NCBI GenBank assembly: GCA_038869175.1
Contig: JAWCRP010000001.1
Span: forward strand, 1 to 37,522
Reading direction: 5' to 3'
DNA: 37,522 nucleotides
Source: Candidatus Nitrosotenuis sp.
GTDB lineage: Archaea > Thermoproteota > Nitrososphaeria > Nitrososphaerales > Nitrosopumilaceae
In this document: one piece after another, positions 19,288 through 30,733 of the stretch
Numbering within the stretch: the stretch's first letter is position 1
How the letters are laid out: each line of letters opens with the position of its first letter
Notes under the pieces: model-generated
Told to the model about the DNA's origin: nothing
The model's input: only the letters and a program-made list of their open reading frames with translations
Databases searched by the model: none
Position numbers and translations under genes: made by a program

Positions 19288-19578
19288 ATGTCTGACGACA
19301 AAAAAATAGTGGAAACCCTTTTTGATCCGAACGTCTCAATAATACTTGCAGAACTTGAGCACGGACCAAAAGAATCAAGCCAGCTTGCGCAAACACTTGG
19401 AATCTCAGAACAAGAGATAGGCAGCAGGCTGTCCTATCTTATCAATTCCGGCATCGTCCGCCTTGAAAGTGCCGCATACTCGGTAGATTCCGAAAGGATT
19501 GCCAAGATAATGGAAAACGATGAAAACTACAAGGGGGTAGTTGACGGCCTAACAGAGCTGGACAGCTATCTTAACTAG
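19288..19578 (+). CDS. Small winged helix-turn-helix protein
   Basis: ILAELEHGPK..SQLAQTLGIS...IGSRLSYL...GIV pattern (ArsR-like wHTH); starts 6 nt after the vWA gene. Confidence 0.7.
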   Translation: MSDDKKIVETLFDPNVSIILAELEHGPKESSQLAQTLGISEQEIGSRLSYLINSGIVRLESAAYSVDSERIAKIMENDENYKGVVDGLTELDSYLN

Positions 19579-20074
19579 TCCGCTTCCTTGTCTTTACTGC
19601 ATAAATGACTGCTATGCCAACACCTACAAAGCCACACAGTATTGCAGCCTGACCAAATATGTTGAGCGCAATTACCGACTTGTCTGGCATGTGGGCAAGC
19701 CCTACAAGTGCGCGTACCTCTTGCGAATCAGAGTTTTCCAACACCAGGCGGTGCTCGCCCCTACTTGTTACCCTAAATTGCTCTTCAGTGGAATCTGAGT
19801 CTATCTTCTTTGCCACAATCTGGCTGCCAAAAGGATCAAAAACCCTTGCAGTCATCTTACCGCCTTGCGCCGTTGTATGAACTACAAAGACTCCAGTATC
19901 GCTTATTGCCGGATCAAGCTCGCGCGTTACCTCAACTGGTGTTGACACGCTTGACTGCCCCTCAGAGATTGAGACGCCTTGGGATATCATAGATGAGCCG
20001 GTATAGGAGATTATCATGCCTACTGCGACAAGGCCGCCTGCAATGAAGATCATAAGATGAGATTTTTTCATCAT
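19571..20074 (-). CDS. Hypothetical membrane protein (N- and C-terminal TM helices flanking a beta-rich domain)
   Basis: Hydrophobic segments LMIFIAGGLVAVGMIISY and AAILCGFVGVGIAVIYAV followed by a basic tail. Confidence 0.7.
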   Translation of the reverse strand: MMKKSHLMIFIAGGLVAVGMIISYTGSSMISQGVSISEGQSSVSTPVEVTRELDPAISDTGVFVVHTTAQGGKMTARVFDPFGSQIVAKKIDSDSTEEQFRVTSRGEHRLVLENSDSQEVRALVGLAHMPDKSVIALNIFGQAAILCGFVGVGIAVIYAVKTRKRTS

Positions 20075-20128: not shown

Positions 20129-20174
20129 AAAGTTAGCCTTCTCTAATAAATTTAGCCTAGGCTAACTTTAAATA
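20129..20174. promoter_or_regulatory. Tandem palindromic operators (TTAG-N6-CTAA) abutting the TATA box of the multicopper oxidase-ZIP operon
   Basis: TTAGCCTTCTCTAA at 20133-20146, perfect palindrome TTAGCCTAGGCTAA at 20152-20165, and TTTAAATA at 20167-20174. Confidence 0.7.
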
Positions 20175-20203
20175 AACAAAAAATATACCATACAATACAC
20201 AAG

Positions 20204-21223
20204 TTGAAGCCGTTTTCAAAGATGACATTTGTACTAGTAGTAACTGCGATCGTAACTACTTTGTACTTTGCGTATCCGCTTACATCCGATGCCGACAAGC
20301 AGGAGAAGACATTTGTAACGCACAACGGCATGGTAGTCCGCACAACGGGCGAGATACTTGATCCAGTATACCTGCCACAGACAGTTGAGATAGACCCGGA
20401 CAAGTACCTGCGGGAGTTCAACTACGGACGCGTATCGCAACTTGCAGACGGGACGACTCTTCGCGAATTTACGATAATTGCCAGAGACGATCAGATAATG
20501 GAGATATCGCCTGGCGTATACTACAATGTGTGGACGTTTAACAACACCGTTCCCGGCCCTACAATTAGGGCAACTCAGGGGGATCTTGTGCGAGTGCACT
20601 TTATCAACGAGGGCAACAAGCCGCACACAATACACTTTCACGGAGTACATGAGGCAAACATGGATGGTGTCTTTGAGATAGTAGGACCAGGTGGAGGGCG
20701 CTTTACATACGAGTTCTACGCTGATCCGGTCGGCGTACACCCATACCACTGCCACGTAATGCCGCTTGAGGAGCACATCTCGCACGGCTTGTACGGGGTG
20801 TATATTGTGGATCCAAAGGAGCCAAGGCCAAAGGCAGACGAGATGGTGATGGTTCTCAACGGCCTTGACACCGACTTTGACATGGAAAATAACTTTTACG
20901 CTGCAAACACAATTCCTTTTTACTATCAACACCATCCAATCAAGATAAAGCAACACGAGCTTGTGAGAATCTATGTAGTCAACATGCTCGAGTTTGATCA
21001 GATAAACAACTTTCATCTTCACGGTAACCTGTACCACTACTATCCTACAGGAACATACACTGTTCCAAGTATGTTCACCGACATGATAACTCTCTCACAG
21101 GGCGAGCGCGGCATAATGGAGTTTGAATATACATATCCTGGCAAGTACCTCTTCCATGCCCACAAGACAGAGTTTGCAGAAAAAGGCTGGGTCGGCCTAT
21201 TTCTAGTCGAGGAGGCGTCCTAG
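20204..21223 (+). CDS. Two-domain multicopper oxidase with an N-terminal signal/anchor
   Basis: PGPTIRATQGD, HTIHFHG, YHCH...H, FHLHG and FHAH (four HxH motifs); hydrophobic N-terminus. Confidence 0.92.
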   Translation: MKPFSKMTFVLVVTAIVTTLYFAYPLTSDADKQEKTFVTHNGMVVRTTGEILDPVYLPQTVEIDPDKYLREFNYGRVSQLADGTTLREFTIIARDDQIMEISPGVYYNVWTFNNTVPGPTIRATQGDLVRVHFINEGNKPHTIHFHGVHEANMDGVFEIVGPGGGRFTYEFYADPVGVHPYHCHVMPLEEHISHGLYGVYIVDPKEPRPKADEMVMVLNGLDTDFDMENNFYAANTIPFYYQHHPIKIKQHELVRIYVVNMLEFDQINNFHLHGNLYHYYPTGTYTVPSMFTDMITLSQGERGIMEFEYTYPGKYLFHAHKTEFAEKGWVGLFLVEEAS

Positions 21224-22387
21224 TTGGAGGTAAAGACATCAAAGGCAAAGCTTGTCGCAAGTGGCCTCATACCGCTGGCACTGCTGGGAGTGATGATATT
21301 TTACATATTCGGACCCGGCTCTGACCTATTGGAATTTGGAGTAGCGCTTCCGAAGATAACTATGGAGCGCATTGACTTTGTCGACTCGGAGATTCAAGTA
21401 CTAGTAAGAAACACAGGACCGATTCCCGTGTCGATAGCGCAGGCAGATATCAACGATAGAATCCAGCCTGCAGCAATAGAGCCTGGAAGAAACCTTGAAC
21501 GATTTGAGACGGCAAAGGTACGAATTCCTTACCTGTGGAATGAGGCGGAACCCTACGAGATAGGTCTTACACTAAGCGATGGAACGCGCTTTGCAACCTT
21601 TGTTGAGGCAGCAGCCCCGGCACTCAAGCCGAGCACAGATCTTGTAGTGTACTTTGCAATTATAGGAACTTATGTTGGAATTCTCCCTGTGATGATTGGC
21701 CTTTTGTGGTTCCCGTTCATATCGCGTCTGAGTGCTGCCAAGTACACGTTCTTTTTGGCAATAACGGTCGGTCTTTTGATATTTCTTGGAATCGATACCA
21801 TAGAGGAGGCACTTGAGATATCCTCAACGCGCCTTGCCGGCGTATTCAACGGCCAGCTGCTTGTCGCAACGGTGGTAGTATCGTCATTTATCGGATTGTA
21901 TTATGTCTCAGAAAAGCTCATCAGCAAAAAGTATGCCAACATCTCCAAATCAGTGGCAATCGCACTCATGGTCTCAATTGGAATAGGGCTGCACAACTTT
22001 GGCGAAGGACTTGCAATAGGTGCTGCAATAGGACTTGGCGAGGTTGCACTGAGTACATTTCTGATAATCGGGTTTACCTTACACAACACTACGGAAGGCC
22101 TTGCGATTGCGGCCCCGATGGCAAGACAAAAACCCATGATAGGCAAACTTGCAGCAATGGGATTAATTGCCGGCACCCCAGCAATATTTGGGGCATGGAT
22201 GGGCGGCTTTGACTACTCACCGCTATCTGCAATCATATTTCTCTCAGTTGGGGCTGGCGCAATATTTCAGGTGGTAGTCTCGATCCTCAACTGGGTAAAA
22301 CAGGATCAAAAAATAATGTCTGCACCAGTTGCCGCCGGAATTGCAGTTGGCATGATAATTATGTATGTGACAAGCATCATCATCTAG
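21224..22387 (+). CDS. ZIP family divalent metal transporter with an N-terminal extracellular domain
   Basis: IGLHNFGEGLAIG and LHNTTEGLAI transport-site motifs; multiple TM helices. Confidence 0.92.
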   Translation: MEVKTSKAKLVASGLIPLALLGVMIFYIFGPGSDLLEFGVALPKITMERIDFVDSEIQVLVRNTGPIPVSIAQADINDRIQPAAIEPGRNLERFETAKVRIPYLWNEAEPYEIGLTLSDGTRFATFVEAAAPALKPSTDLVVYFAIIGTYVGILPVMIGLLWFPFISRLSAAKYTFFLAITVGLLIFLGIDTIEEALEISSTRLAGVFNGQLLVATVVVSSFIGLYYVSEKLISKKYANISKSVAIALMVSIGIGLHNFGEGLAIGAAIGLGEVALSTFLIIGFTLHNTTEGLAIAAPMARQKPMIGKLAAMGLIAGTPAIFGAWMGGFDYSPLSAIIFLSVGAGAIFQVVVSILNWVKQDQKIMSAPVAAGIAVGMIIMYVTSIII

Positions 22388-23742
22388 AACGGCTCTGGGT
22401 GTATTGTAATGACAGAGTTCTTAAAATGACTGCGCAGATCGTGCTCTATCTGCGTTGTGAGATCGTGCACGCGCTCTATGCTAAGGTTACCATCAAATGA
22501 GCAACTGATGTCTATTTTCACCAAGTCTCCGTAGCTTAGCGTGACTATCTTTCCGATCCTTCTTACTTCGATGTGTTCCTTTAGTATGGCTGCAATCTTT
22601 TCGTCTGCCGTGCTGAACTCTGTCATGTCACTTGGTATGGCAATATGCGGTTCTAGGTGAATTGTGATGTTCTCTATTTCTGGCATCTGTTGGCGTATTC
22701 TATCCTCTATGGTGTCTGCAAGATTGTGAGCATCTTGCAGGCTCATGCTTCCATCCACCATTACGTGCAGGCTGACAAACTTGGCCCCCTTTGTGACATG
22801 ATGTGAGACGTTGTGAATTCCCTTAATGCCTGCAACACCTGATGCGATTTCGTAGATCTTGGCGTTTATTGGAACATCCTTCCAGCTTGGCTCAAAGTGT
22901 ACAGTTATCTCTGAATTTGGAATCGATCTTTTGATATTGTCCTCAACATTACTACTTATCTCATGCGCTCTCTCAAAACTGACATCTGCTCTAAGGGATA
23001 TTGTGACGTCGGCAAATACGCCGTCCCCCGACTTGCGCATTAATACATCTCCGACACCAGTTACGCCATCAGTAGATCTTGCAATCTCCCTTACATCCTT
23101 TACCAACTGTGGTGAGATAGTATCGGTCAGCTCCTGTGCGGTGCGCCAGACAAGCTTTAAGCTGAGAACGCACAACAGAACACCTAGAACTAGGGCTGCA
23201 GCAAAATCAGCATCATAAATCCCCATGTTTGCAAGAACTATTCCTGCCACCACAACAAGCGTGGAGCCAAGATCCATGAACGCATGATAAAAGTCGGCCC
23301 TGACTGTAGAGCCGCCGATACTTTTCAATGCCCTCCTCAACAGAACGATTCTGAAAATATCGATTCCAATTGTATAGAATGCAGCGCCAAGTGCAAATAG
23401 GCCTGGCACCGATGTATGTTCTGGACTTTGAATTCTAGTTATGGCCTCGTATATGAAAAATATAGCAATCAGAAATATCGAAATTCCGCCTATCATTCCT
23501 CCAAGCGACTCTACTTTTCCATGTCCGTAGGTGTGTTCTGCATCAGGGGGCTTGATTGCATATCGTGCAGCCAAAAGGAGTACCATGGTGACTACGCCAT
23601 CAAGCAATGCATGAATGCTGTCAGTTAATAGCGCAAGACTGCCGGAAATTATTCCAAATACAAACTCTACTACAAATGCCGACAGTATTGCGCCAAGCGA
23701 TATCTTTAGGACTCCAGTCCTCTGGGAAAGCAGATTCATCAA
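22384..23742 (-). CDS. Cation diffusion facilitator (FieF-like) with three C-terminal domains
   Basis: SLALLTDSIHALLD, PPDAEHTYGHGKVE and HAFMD motifs; three C-terminal repeats ending VHFEP, IHLEP and IHPEP. Confidence 0.92.
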   Translation of the reverse strand: MMNLLSQRTGVLKISLGAILSAFVVEFVFGIISGSLALLTDSIHALLDGVVTMVLLLAARYAIKPPDAEHTYGHGKVESLGGMIGGISIFLIAIFFIYEAITRIQSPEHTSVPGLFALGAAFYTIGIDIFRIVLLRRALKSIGGSTVRADFYHAFMDLGSTLVVVAGIVLANMGIYDADFAAALVLGVLLCVLSLKLVWRTAQELTDTISPQLVKDVREIARSTDGVTGVGDVLMRKSGDGVFADVTISLRADVSFERAHEISSNVEDNIKRSIPNSEITVHFEPSWKDVPINAKIYEIASGVAGIKGIHNVSHHVTKGAKFVSLHVMVDGSMSLQDAHNLADTIEDRIRQQMPEIENITIHLEPHIAIPSDMTEFSTADEKIAAILKEHIEVRRIGKIVTLSYGDLVKIDISCSFDGNLSIERVHDLTTQIEHDLRSHFKNSVITIHPEPF

Positions 23743-29991: not shown

Positions 29992-30005
29992 CTAGATGCA
30001 TCTAG
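29992..30005. promoter_or_regulatory. Perfect 14-bp palindrome, putative operator of the VIT1 gene
   Basis: CTAGATGCATCTAG lies immediately downstream of a TTAAAT TATA-like box (29985-29990). Confidence 0.5.
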
Positions 30006-30013
30006 TCAAGACA

Positions 30014-30733
30014 TTGAAACCAGTAGAGCCTAGACACATGGAGCCGCATCTTACAGAATCAAGCGGAGTGCGGGATTTTGTTTTTGGATTCGGTGATGGC
30101 ATCAACACATCGCTTGGCATAGCCGCAGGTGTTGGCGGAGCAGATGTCTCATCCAATATAATCATACTTGCGTCGCTTGTAGGGATGTTCACCGGGGCAA
30201 AGGCAATGGCAGTCCAGAACTATCTTGCAGTCAAGGCCCAAAAAGAGCTTTTACGATCCGAGATTGCGCGCGAAGAGTGGGAAATAGAAAACATGCCAGA
30301 TGAGGAAAGAAAGGAGATAGAGGAGATCTACAAGGCAAAGGGATTCTCAGGAGAGCAGCTTGACATGGTAGTAGACAAGATAACTTCAAACAAAAAGGTC
30401 TGGCTTCAGACAATGCTGACAGAGGAACTACAGCTGAATCTTGAGGTGGTAGGAAATCCACTAAAGAGCGCATTTAGAATGTTTGGCGCATTCCTGCTTG
30501 GAGGAATACTTCCTATAATTCCGTTCTTCTTTTTGCACGGACACGCCCCTCTTTTGATTGCAATTGGAATCAGCCTATCAAGCTCGTTCATGGTAGGCGC
30601 AGCAAAATCAAAAATGGCAAAAACAAACATCATCAAAGGTGGCCTTGAGATGGCAGGACTTGGAACTGGAATTGCACTTGTCGGATTTGGCATCGGCACA
30701 GAGCTTGCAAATCTTGGGATTATTGATTTTTGA
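30014..30733 (+). CDS. VIT1/CCC1 family Fe/Mn transporter
   Basis: RDFVFGFGDG, AMAVQNYLA, Glu-rich cytosolic domain and GGILPIIPF. Start placed at TTG 30014 from TATA spacing; ATG 29996 is the alternative. Confidence 0.9.
   Translation: MKPVEPRHMEPHLTESSGVRDFVFGFGDGINTSLGIAAGVGGADVSSNIIILASLVGMFTGAKAMAVQNYLAVKAQKELLRSEIAREEWEIENMPDEERKEIEEIYKAKGFSGEQLDMVVDKITSNKKVWLQTMLTEELQLNLEVVGNPLKSAFRMFGAFLLGGILPIIPFFFLHGHAPLLIAIGISLSSSFMVGAAKSKMAKTNIIKGGLEMAGLGTGIALVGFGIGTELANLGIIDF

What the first reader, a model, noticed from the sequence alone, without database searches (positions are those of the whole stretch)
20129..22387. Candidate metal-repressed oxidase-plus-ZIP uptake system with tandem DtxR/MntR-like operators
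Seen: two TTAG-N6-CTAA boxes (20133-20146 and the perfect palindrome at 20152-20165) lie inside a larger inverted repeat AAAGTTAGCCT...AGGCTAACTTT (20129-20169). Box 2 covers the BRE position next to TTTAAATA. Directly downstream, an exported multicopper oxidase and a ZIP transporter abut with zero gap. Known: TTAG-N6-CTAA resembles operators of DtxR/MntR/SirR Fe/Mn-dependent repressors, and oxidase-permease coupling is established for Fet3/Ftr1, where the permease is not a ZIP. Inference: this is a metal-limitation-induced module in which the oxidase sets the redox state of the metal carried by the ZIP. MCO-ZIP adjacency in AOA has, as I recall, been noted before, so the operator is the new clue.
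Basis: partly seen in the sequence, partly recalled or inferred. Interest (0 to 1): 0.72.

Follow-up and report, generated by a model that had tools for sequence, protein, structure and literature searches.

The report
Manganese-switched oxidase and metal importer
Two repeated DNA sites sit on the promoter of a copper-oxidase/metal-importer gene pair in this ammonia-oxidising archaeon and its relatives, and the same sites precede manganese-type importers in relatives that lack the pair, so the pair is likely a manganese-uptake system shut off by the repressor MntR rather than the copper-uptake or ammonia-oxidation part it was proposed to be.

Summary
Confirmed. The two TTAG-N6-CTAA boxes (19-bp period) abut the TATA box of the known AOA pair MCO1-ZIP (genome close to Ca. 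Nitrosotenuis). In loci chosen by ZIP homology, 26 of 37 carry the tandem, against 1 of 151 control windows. The new point is the metal. The same array fronts MntH or a TroA/MntABC importer in relatives lacking MCO1-ZIP, often in the same genomic slot. Of two AOA DtxR clades, only the one with B. subtilis MntR's Mn ligands and dimer-dimer residues lies beside these operons, and 19 bp is the MntR cooperative spacing. Published proteomics shows no induction under Fe limitation; Cu chelation induces weakly. Best reading: MntR-repressed Mn(II) uptake (0.7). Binding, repression and transport are untested. The pair also occurs in bacteria and haloarchaea. Adjacency and an oxidase-permease (Cu) hypothesis are in print; I found no paper on the operator, but Leyn and Rodionov 2015 was unreadable. 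This scan found the same before on other DNA (e1-2522163, e1-2599591).

The parts
20133..20146 (.). Distal operator core (18-bp site 20131-20148), predicted second MntR dimer site
   Evidence: third-best site of a genome-wide matrix scan; arms conserved while the centre varies
20152..20165 (.). Proximal operator core, perfect palindrome (18-bp site 20150-20167, 1 bp from the distal site), overlapping the BRE position
   Evidence: best genome-wide site; abuts a TATA-like element in Nitrosopumilaceae promoters for MCO1, MntH and TroA
20129..20169 (.).
   Evidence: 19-bp period equals the B. subtilis MntR array spacing
20167..20174 (+). TATA-like element TTTAAATA
   Evidence: Sequence; conserved position 1-4 bp after the proximal box; function inferred
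20204..21223 (+). MCO1: two-domain multicopper oxidase, 339 aa, T1 site in domain 1 (H141, C183, H191, axial L196), eight T2/T3 histidines, N-terminal hydrophobic helix
   Evidence: Pfam Cu-oxidase_3 and _2; closest structures 3gdc and 7rab; ligands invariant in 45 of 45 aligned sequences, L196 in 44
21209..21215 (+). Shine-Dalgarno-like GAGGAGG inside the MCO 3' end, 8 nt before the ZIP TTG (translational coupling inferred)
   Evidence: Sequence
21224..22387 (+). Divergent ZIP-family transporter, 387 aa: extra N-terminal helix plus pilin/FlaG-like beta-sandwich (residues 7-127) fused to an 8-helix ZIP core with HNxGEG and HNxTEG motifs
   Evidence: Pfam Zip below cut-off; profile hits BbZIP at E 1.9e-16 and archaeal pilin 8fk7 at 6.6e-8; model pLDDT 91.5; Foldseek BbZIP, 8fk7, FlaG
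19571..20074 (-). Divergent 167-aa membrane-protein gene: marks the genomic slot, probably not part of the regulon
   Evidence: Also flanks operator-TroA loci; not found at the C49 paralogue or the 8 MntH loci tested

Best explanation
The two boxes are a conserved array on the promoter of the MCO1-ZIP gene pair that likely binds two cooperating dimers of the manganese sensor MntR, which would block transcription when Mn2+ is sufficient, so that the pair is predicted to be made under Mn shortage and the ZIP likely imports Mn2+. Shown: the array, its position on the BRE/TATA, its conservation, its recurrence before MntH and TroA importers, and an MntR with Mn-type ligands that is linked to these operons in relatives. 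Inferred: binding, repression, Mn2+ transport. The oxidase step is the weakest. I commit to a gatekeeper role (about 0.35 within this model): the exported O2-reducing oxidase would convert Fe2+ and Cu+ near the transporter into forms that are not mis-imported or do not react with peroxide, leaving the harder-to-oxidise Mn2+ for a low-selectivity ZIP. Next come oxidative release of Mn from organic ligands (about 0.25) and capture of Mn as surface oxide (about 0.2).
For: (1) Regulon content. Of 30 loci returned for the tandem pattern, 20 front MCO1, 7 NRAMP/MntH, 1 a TroA-type ABC binding protein, 2 FeoB (a TTAGG variant, outside the order). (2) Replacement. In family f1 the ZIP is found in 139 of 180 genomes and Nramp in 37; 30 of the 41 ZIP-less genomes have Nramp against 7 of 139 ZIP-bearing ones (genus g14: ZIP 0 of 26, Nramp 26 of 26; g8: 0 of 3, 3 of 3). 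The array fronts mntH in 5 of 5 g14 genomes, 2 of 2 g8 and G156, and TroA in G032, G114, G211, G221, G274, G280 and G250; six TroA loci share the window's flanking gene. (3) Regulator. AOA carry two DtxR clades. Clade B has E7-D8-E11-H77-E99-E102-H103 (B. subtilis MntR numbering; Mn ligands per PMC9861239), the G000 member passes the NCBIfam MntR equivalog cut-off narrowly (138.2 vs 138), and it lies next to MCO1-ZIP (L067, L070, L078, L131, L133, L230, L231, L233, L235) or mntH (L009, L090, L136, L137). Clade A has Met/Cys ligands and was not beside a transporter in the 8 loci read. (4) Geometry. B. subtilis MntR binds 18-bp sites 1 bp apart (PMC11882963); its interface residues Y22, E55, G59 are kept in 15 of 15 clade B proteins and the set in 0 of 19 clade A. 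(5) Outside AOA the Haloferax mediterranei copy has a box matching the ChIP-defined Mn-type SirR motif and not the Fe-type TroR motif, and the Cytobacillus copy matches the B. subtilis mntH site at 14 of 16 bases. In 96 AOA half-sites the base after TTAG is never G, unlike TroR. (6) N. maritimus proteomics: Nmar_1131 and Nmar_1130 not detected, Nmar_1663 0-3 counts, in Fe-limited as in Fe-replete cells (PMC12974425 supplement).
Against: No binding, expression or transport data under Mn limitation exist in what I saw. Kin are not independent: the MntH and TroA swaps amount to perhaps 4-6 events. MntH and TroA families also carry Fe2+, Zn2+ or Cd2+, and TroA with the array also occurs in a genome that has MCO1-ZIP (G080). 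MCO1 and its ZIP rise 0.81 and 1.33 log2 under Cu chelation in N. viennensis. 19-bp MntR arrays activate efflux genes in B. subtilis. Only 7 of 23 distant (mostly bacterial) copies have a perfect box, and their linked regulators are of another DtxR clade. For the gatekeeper step there is no direct evidence; the acidic pair beside the T1 His (E189/E190) is basic in the 2 bacterial sequences aligned, so a Fet3-like Fe2+ pocket is not universal, and MntH needs no oxidase. The MntR gene is unlinked in this genome (contig C11).
Confidence: 0.7

Rival explanations
1. Same repressor and layout, but the sensed and imported metal is mainly Fe: an Fe-limitation module, with or without Fet3/Ftr1-like hand-over of the oxidised ion.
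For: ZIP and Tro families were named as the only candidate Fe importers of N. maritimus (PMC6776035). A related tandem fronts FeoB in two genomes outside the order. Genomes are annotated zinc/iron permease.
Against: No induction in Fe-limited N. maritimus proteomes (spectral counts, membrane proteins are poorly seen, orthology inferred from locus tags). The linked regulator has Mn-type ligands; the Met/Cys clade is the other one. FeoB boxes are TTAGG-type, never seen in 96 AOA half-sites. The ZIP core has fewer acidic residues than BbZIP (N for D208, no E240), which disfavours a trivalent ion (inference).
Confidence: 0.1
2. Published hypothesis: MCO1 oxidises Cu+ to Cu2+ and the ZIP imports it; the operon serves Cu uptake.
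For: Proposed in PMC7785015; NVIE_000600/000590 up 0.81/1.33 log2 under Cu chelation. Chemically consistent with a divalent carrier. P-type ATPase or other Cu genes lie near 3 of 6 plasmid copies and a P1B ATPase precedes the C49 paralogue.
Against: The response is small beside MCO4 (4.27 and 6.99 log2), the second pair does not respond (-0.01, -0.24), and N. maritimus gave conflicting patterns. A Cu importer under an MntR operator shared with MntH is hard to rationalise.
Confidence: 0.08
3. The array activates: Mn-loaded MntR recruits TFB/TBP at high Mn and MCO1 oxidises surplus Mn2+ (detoxification or oxide storage), as MntR arrays activate mneP.
For: Same 19-bp spacing and interface residues as the activating B. 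subtilis array; the array lies upstream of TATA in Nitrosopumilaceae; 4 of 120 close homologues are auto-annotated manganese oxidase; moxA-like genes were reported in thaumarchaeal MAGs.
Against: Identical geometry fronts the importers MntH and TroA; in six f2/f4 mntH promoters the array lies downstream of the TATA-like element; the proximal site is a near-perfect one, whereas activating sites are weak, and paired sites also repress E. coli mntS. MCO1 is near-undetectable in standard cultures.
Confidence: 0.07
4. MCO1 is a core nitrogen-oxidation enzyme (hydroxylamine oxidation candidate) and the operator mainly serves the ZIP.
For: Hypothesis of Kerou et al. 2016 as cited in PMC5767755; AOA-wide conservation.
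Against: Absent from Nitrosotalea; near-undetectable in nitrifying N. maritimus; the ZIP-less paralogue on C49 keeps the same array; the pair occurs in non-nitrifiers.
Confidence: 0.03
5. The boxes are chance or a by-product of BRE/TATA composition.
For: 6 of 100 window shuffles give 2 or more matches; the right arm of box 2 doubles as the BRE.
Against: Tandem in 164 of 301 genomes against about 30 for the reversed control (counted by eye); 26 of 37 against 1 of 151; arms conserved, centres variable.
Confidence: 0.01

Closest known systems
AOA MCO1 + ZIP permease pair (Kerou et al. 2016, seen only as cited in PMC7785015, PMC5817080, PMC5767755)
   Same: Same gene pair: two-domain MCO with T1 axial Leu directly upstream of a ZIP.
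   Different: In the passages read it is tied to Cu uptake or hydroxylamine oxidation; no operator, MntR or Mn is mentioned (0 hits for DtxR, MntR, manganese in PMC7785015).
Bacillus subtilis MntR regulon (mntH, mntABCD repressed; mneP/mneS arrays activated; PMC9861239, PMC11882963)
   Same: Regulator with the same Mn ligands and dimer-dimer residues; 18-bp sites 1 bp apart; MntH and ABC importers as targets in relatives.
   Different: Archaeal BRE/TATA promoter; different core sequence (TTAG-N6-CTAA); an array in front of importers; the usual target is an oxidase plus ZIP.
Haloferax volcanii SirR (Mn) and TroR (Fe) regulons (PMC10783522)
   Same: Archaeal DtxR-family palindromes; SirR binds before mntH and mtsABC; the H. 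mediterranei MCO-ZIP copy carries a SirR-type box.
   Different: AOA factor is the short MntR form; AOA consensus differs from both motifs; no MCO-ZIP target named in the passages read.
Yeast Fet3/Ftr1 (as described in PMC7785015; otherwise recalled)
   Same: Metal-limitation co-regulation of an exported multicopper oxidase with a permease.
   Different: Three-domain ferroxidase and an FTR1 Fe3+ permease; here a two-domain MCO and a ZIP fold that carries divalent ions; hand-over and physical contact untested.
Mn-transporting ZIPs TmpA (Streptococcus sanguinis) and BmtA (PMC8844249); BbZIP structure 5tsa
   Same: ZIP fold; Asn at the M2 position where BbZIP has Asp (N288 invariant in 78 of 78; equivalence to TmpA N173 inferred).
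   Different: Extra N-terminal helix and pilin/FlaG-like domain; no E240 equivalent; near-obligate MCO partner. The Asn is common in ZIPs (recalled) and is not diagnostic for Mn.
Two-domain MCO structures 3gdc and 7rab
   Same: 56% and 49% identity over the fold, TM 0.91 and 0.85.
   Different: Entry titles give no physiological substrate; the 7rab paper was not held.

Membership tests
MntR operator / regulon | Palindromic site conserved at orthologous promoters | tested here: met
   31 of 37 perfect box, 26 of 37 tandem; controls 2 and 1 of 151
MntR operator / regulon | Cognate factor with D8/E11/H77/E99/E102/H103 in the genome and linked to targets | tested here: met
   G000 C11 gene; adjacent to MCO1-ZIP or mntH in 13 loci of relatives; unlinked in G000
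MntR operator / regulon | Same site before established Mn importer families | tested here: met
   MntH and TroA-type loci
MntR operator / regulon | 18-bp sites 1 bp apart with interface residues for cooperativity | tested here: met
MntR operator / regulon | Mn2+-dependent binding and repression | not testable with these tools
   Needs EMSA and expression data
Fe-type DtxR/TroR operator | TTAGG-N4-CCTAA core and Met/Cys-type regulator linked to targets | tested here: not met
   0 of 96 half-sites have G after TTAG; clade A not beside transporters in 8 loci read
AOA MCO1 (two-domain MCO, T1 in domain 1) | Two cupredoxin domains, T1 H-C-H-L in domain 1, none in domain 2, eight T2/T3 His, ZIP adjacent | tested here: met
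   no direct alignment to named NVIE/Nmar proteins was made
NirK copper nitrite reductase | Passes TIGR02376; T2-only catalytic site | tested here: not met
   94 bits vs cut-off 296; full T2/T3 His set present
ZIP (PF02535) | 8-helix ZIP fold with TM4/TM5 metal motifs | tested here: met
   Profile and fold match BbZIP; 71 of 78 family members hit PF02535 at E 0.01
ZIP (PF02535) | Pfam gathering score; ZupT equivalog | tested here: not met
   22 vs 35.1 bits; ZupT 28 vs 252: a divergent subfamily
Fet3/Ftr1-type oxidase-permease | FTR1-family permease for the oxidised ion | tested here: not met
   Permease has the ZIP fold
Fet3/Ftr1-type oxidase-permease | Physical complex and substrate channelling | not tested

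The most novel reading that the evidence does not exclude
MCO1-ZIP is an unrecognised fourth route of prokaryotic Mn uptake beside MntH, MntABC and lone ZIPs: a cross-domain module in which a trimeric oxidase docks on the ZIP's pilin-like outer domain and confers Mn selectivity by oxidising competing metals or ligands. It would be the default Mn supply of most AOA, swapped for MntH or TroA under one MntR operator, and it removes MCO1 from the list of hydroxylamine-oxidase and Cu-uptake candidates.
Probability: 0.3. Interest if true: 0.75.

Novelty: new variant of a known kind. Interest (0 to 1): 0.55.

Why it matters
MCO1 has been discussed as a candidate for the missing archaeal hydroxylamine-oxidising enzyme and as a Cu-uptake partner. 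An MntR operator shared with MntH and TroA gives a different, cheaply testable assignment (one Mn-limitation experiment, one gel shift) and points to Mn as a regulated nutrient of very abundant nitrifiers. It also defines an uncharacterised ZIP subfamily with an outer pilin-like domain that sits behind a two-domain oxidase in 72 of 75 testable loci across archaea and bacteria, and suggests a physiological role for the 3gdc/7rab class of oxidases.

Tried and rejected
Leyn and Rodionov 2015 (archaeal DtxR regulons) was not held under DOI, PMC id or PubMed id; it may already predict this regulon. A citing paper lists Eury-, Cren- and Korarchaeota only, while I recall a wider genome set and ZIP targets. 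The 7rab paper was not held. Searches for a printed AOA MntR/DtxR regulon listed nothing on it; one search was swamped by general AOA papers and is weak. Complex prediction of MCO trimer with the ZIP outer domain: tool not available, no result. The sigma-70 scan does not apply to archaeal promoters. Rejected: the inverted repeat as an RNA hairpin or terminator (explained by two palindromes; not folded); the divergent 167-aa gene as target; NirK identity. G144's tandem hit matched none of MCO, ZIP, TroA or MntH and L085 fronts an unrelated gene; both are probably chance. Misses: L068 and L079 have no box within 1 mismatch; L238 has none convincing; 4 ZIP-less f1 genomes (G123, G263, G157, G190) have no replacement identified, G190's MCO being cut by a contig end.
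Full report
Observation. Every stated feature is in the sequence: boxes at 20133-20146 and 20152-20165, the 11-bp inverted arms, TTTAAATA at 20167-20174, a 339-aa MCO (20204-21223) and a 387-aa ZIP-like protein (21224-22387) with zero gap and a GAGGAGG 8 nt before the ZIP start. The closest ZIP homologues with names are Ca. Nitrosotenuis proteins at 77-78%. Two matches in the window are not rare by themselves (6 of 100 shuffles). In the 1.1-Mb, 72%-complete genome there are 10 single boxes (6.5 expected), and 4 form two tandems of 19-bp period: the window's, and one on contig C49 in front of a second MCO1 (78% identical protein, 72% DNA) that has no ZIP behind it. A matrix built from relatives ranks these four sites first in the genome (29.9-15.2 bits; next 11.5).

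Conservation. The tandem pattern (1 mismatch) is in 164 of 301 genomes of the class and 137 of 180 of the family; the reversed control is in about 30 (counted by eye). For an unbiased test I used 44 loci chosen by ZIP homology; 5 had no MCO and 2 too little upstream DNA; of the other 37, 31 have a perfect box and 26 the tandem, against 2 and 1 of 151 windows before other ORFs. One miss (L064) is an MCO with an internal deletion that keeps the tandem. Arms are conserved, centres vary, some promoters have three units, and in Nitrosopumilaceae the proximal box ends 1-4 bp before a TATA-like element; in six f2/f4 mntH promoters the array lies downstream of it (these 40 rows were selected by the pattern, so arm conservation there is partly built in).

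What the array controls. Of the 30 loci that one search returned, 20 front MCO1 (19 with ZIP; one cut by a contig end), 7 an NRAMP/MntH, 1 a TroA-type ABC binding protein and 2 FeoB, the last with a TTAGG-type variant outside the order. In family f1 the ZIP was found in 139 of 180 genomes and Nramp in 37: 30 of 41 ZIP-less against 7 of 139 ZIP-bearing. In ZIP-less genomes the array fronts mntH (5 of 5 g14 tested, 2 of 2 g8, G156) or TroA (G032, G114, G211, G221, G274, G280, G250), and six TroA loci have the window's divergent neighbour gene, so the cargo was swapped in one slot. g14 fits the description of Nitrosotalea, which lacks MCO1 and has mntH (PMC5767755 passages); the tool gives no genus name. 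These are a handful of independent events, not hundreds. TroA and MCO1-ZIP can coexist (G080).

The regulator. G000 yields one DtxR-family gene (C11), closest to B. subtilis MntR in the PDB (E 1.6e-27). Complete relatives have two or three. A tree of 56 rows separates clade B, with E7-D8-E11-H77-E99-E102-H103, from clade A, with Met/Cys (several rows are partial or on long branches). The B. subtilis ligands are from PMC9861239 passages; selectivity for Mn2+/Cd2+ over Fe2+ is from the abstract start of PMC6860424. Clade B genes lie beside MCO1-ZIP in 9 loci and beside mntH in 4; clade A was beside no transporter in the 8 loci read. B. subtilis MntR binds 18-bp sites 1 bp apart through K20/Y22/D27/E55/R58/G59 (PMC11882963, passages and section 6). 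The AOA period is the same 19 bp; Y22, E55, Y57 and G59 are kept in 15 of 15 clade B proteins, and the set in none of 19 clade A. The same paper shows such arrays can activate, hence that rival; importers as targets, a strong proximal site and arrays downstream of TATA favour repression.

Beyond AOA. In 80 metagenome loci plus 6 plasmid regions, an MCO directly precedes the ZIP in 72 of 75 testable loci, and a DtxR-family gene is in 27 of 86 (lower bound, short contigs); perfect boxes are in 20 of 24 close and 7 of 23 distant promoters. 149 plasmid records match the ZIP; I opened 6, all with the MCO, 3 with a DtxR gene. The H. mediterranei box fits the SirR (Mn) motif of PMC10783522, not TroR; the Cytobacillus one fits the B. 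subtilis mntH site at 14 of 16.

Proteins. MCO1 has its T1 site in domain 1 with axial Leu, none in domain 2, and all eight T2/T3 His; it is not NirK; nearest folds are 3gdc and 7rab. The ZIP is below the Pfam cut-off but its family profile and model match BbZIP. It carries an extra N-terminal helix and a beta-sandwich like archaeal pilins and FlaG/FlaF, a candidate docking or binding domain of unknown role. Against BbZIP it has His for Q207, Asn for D208 and no E240.

Expression in print. N. viennensis under Cu chelation: MCO1 +0.81, its ZIP +1.33 log2, the second pair unchanged, MCO4 +4.27 and +6.99 (PMC7785015 passages and supplement rows). N. maritimus: Nmar_1131 and Nmar_1130 not detected, Nmar_1663 0-3 counts in Fe-limited and Fe-replete cells, against 124-318 for Nmar_1667 (PMC12974425 supplement rows). 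That these are the MCO1-ZIP pairs is inferred from PMC6776035 and PMC5817080 passages; the medium's Mn status was not checked. This fits an operon held off by a metal other than Fe or Cu, and argues against a core catabolic enzyme.

Mechanism. Shown: array, position, conservation, interchange with Mn-type importers, a matching regulator. Inferred: Mn-MntR dimers bind cooperatively over the BRE and block TFB; low Mn releases the operon; the ZIP imports Mn2+ (0.7). The oxidase is unresolved. Hand-over of an oxidised ion suits Cu+ to Cu2+ but not Mn, and ZIP-only copies exist (L065, L069, L073). I favour a gatekeeper that oxidises Fe2+/Cu+ (0.35 within the model), then ligand oxidation, then oxide capture (title of PMC3798386 in listing 34 shows Mn oxidation can raise cellular Mn). 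Binding between the two proteins was not tested.

Known and new. The pair, the hydroxylamine idea and the Fet3-like Cu idea are in print (Kerou 2016 not seen). I found no paper on the operator, but Leyn and Rodionov 2015 and its supplements, which I could not see, may contain it. Two earlier notes of this scan reached the same reading on other genomes; they are not independent support. I had the Mn reading before the first look-up; the 19-bp MntR paper came, after note e1-2522163 had named the mneP arrays. Verdict: real, a new variant of a known kind (an MntR regulon whose usual target is an oxidase-ZIP module), interest 0.55.

Noticed in passing
G000 C49, L001:837-4299 (minus strand): A second MCO1 with the same tandem operator but no ZIP lies behind an ArsR gene and a P1B-type heavy-metal ATPase; an ArsR-ATPase pair also flanks the Cytobacillus MCO-ZIP (L224).
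   Followed up: partly
window 22384-23742 (-): CDF exporter with three ZT_dimer stretches, convergent with the ZIP and overlapping its stop by 4 bp; noted earlier by the scan (e1-2522031).
   Followed up: no
window 29996-30733 (+): VIT1/CCC1-family protein, a possible Fe/Mn exporter; not among the top operator sites of the genome scan.
   Followed up: no
L064:3740-4000: Nitrosotenuis MAG with the MCO1 gene internally deleted while operator and ZIP remain; real loss or misassembly.
   Followed up: partly
L226, L227, L228, L229, L079: Distant MCO-ZIP copies are often flanked by small redox genes (Rieske in 2, cupredoxin in 2, DoxD and TlpA in 1), hinting at an electron-transfer partner not seen beside the AOA copies.
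   Followed up: no
L123, L125, L127, L129 and others: The second, AOA-wide DtxR clade (Met/Cys ligands, altered N-terminal site) sits behind a TrmB-like gene in 6 of 8 loci read; its regulon is unknown and it may be the AOA Fe sensor. L140 has a TTAGG-type tandem (17-bp period) about 440 bp upstream of it.
   Followed up: partly
L079:977-2761 (-): DtxR-family repressor in one reading frame with a C-terminal outer-membrane-barrel-like region (594 aa; fold judged by eye), divergent from MCO-ZIP in an acidobacterium.
   Followed up: no
L131:643-2400, L133:2521-4233: In some Nitrososphaeraceae the ZIP is 570-585 aa with a long low-complexity N-terminal extension.
   Followed up: no
L076:2900-2935: Bacterial MCO-ZIP-DtxR cassette with two TTAG-N6-CTAA boxes at 15-bp rather than 19-bp period.
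   Followed up: partly
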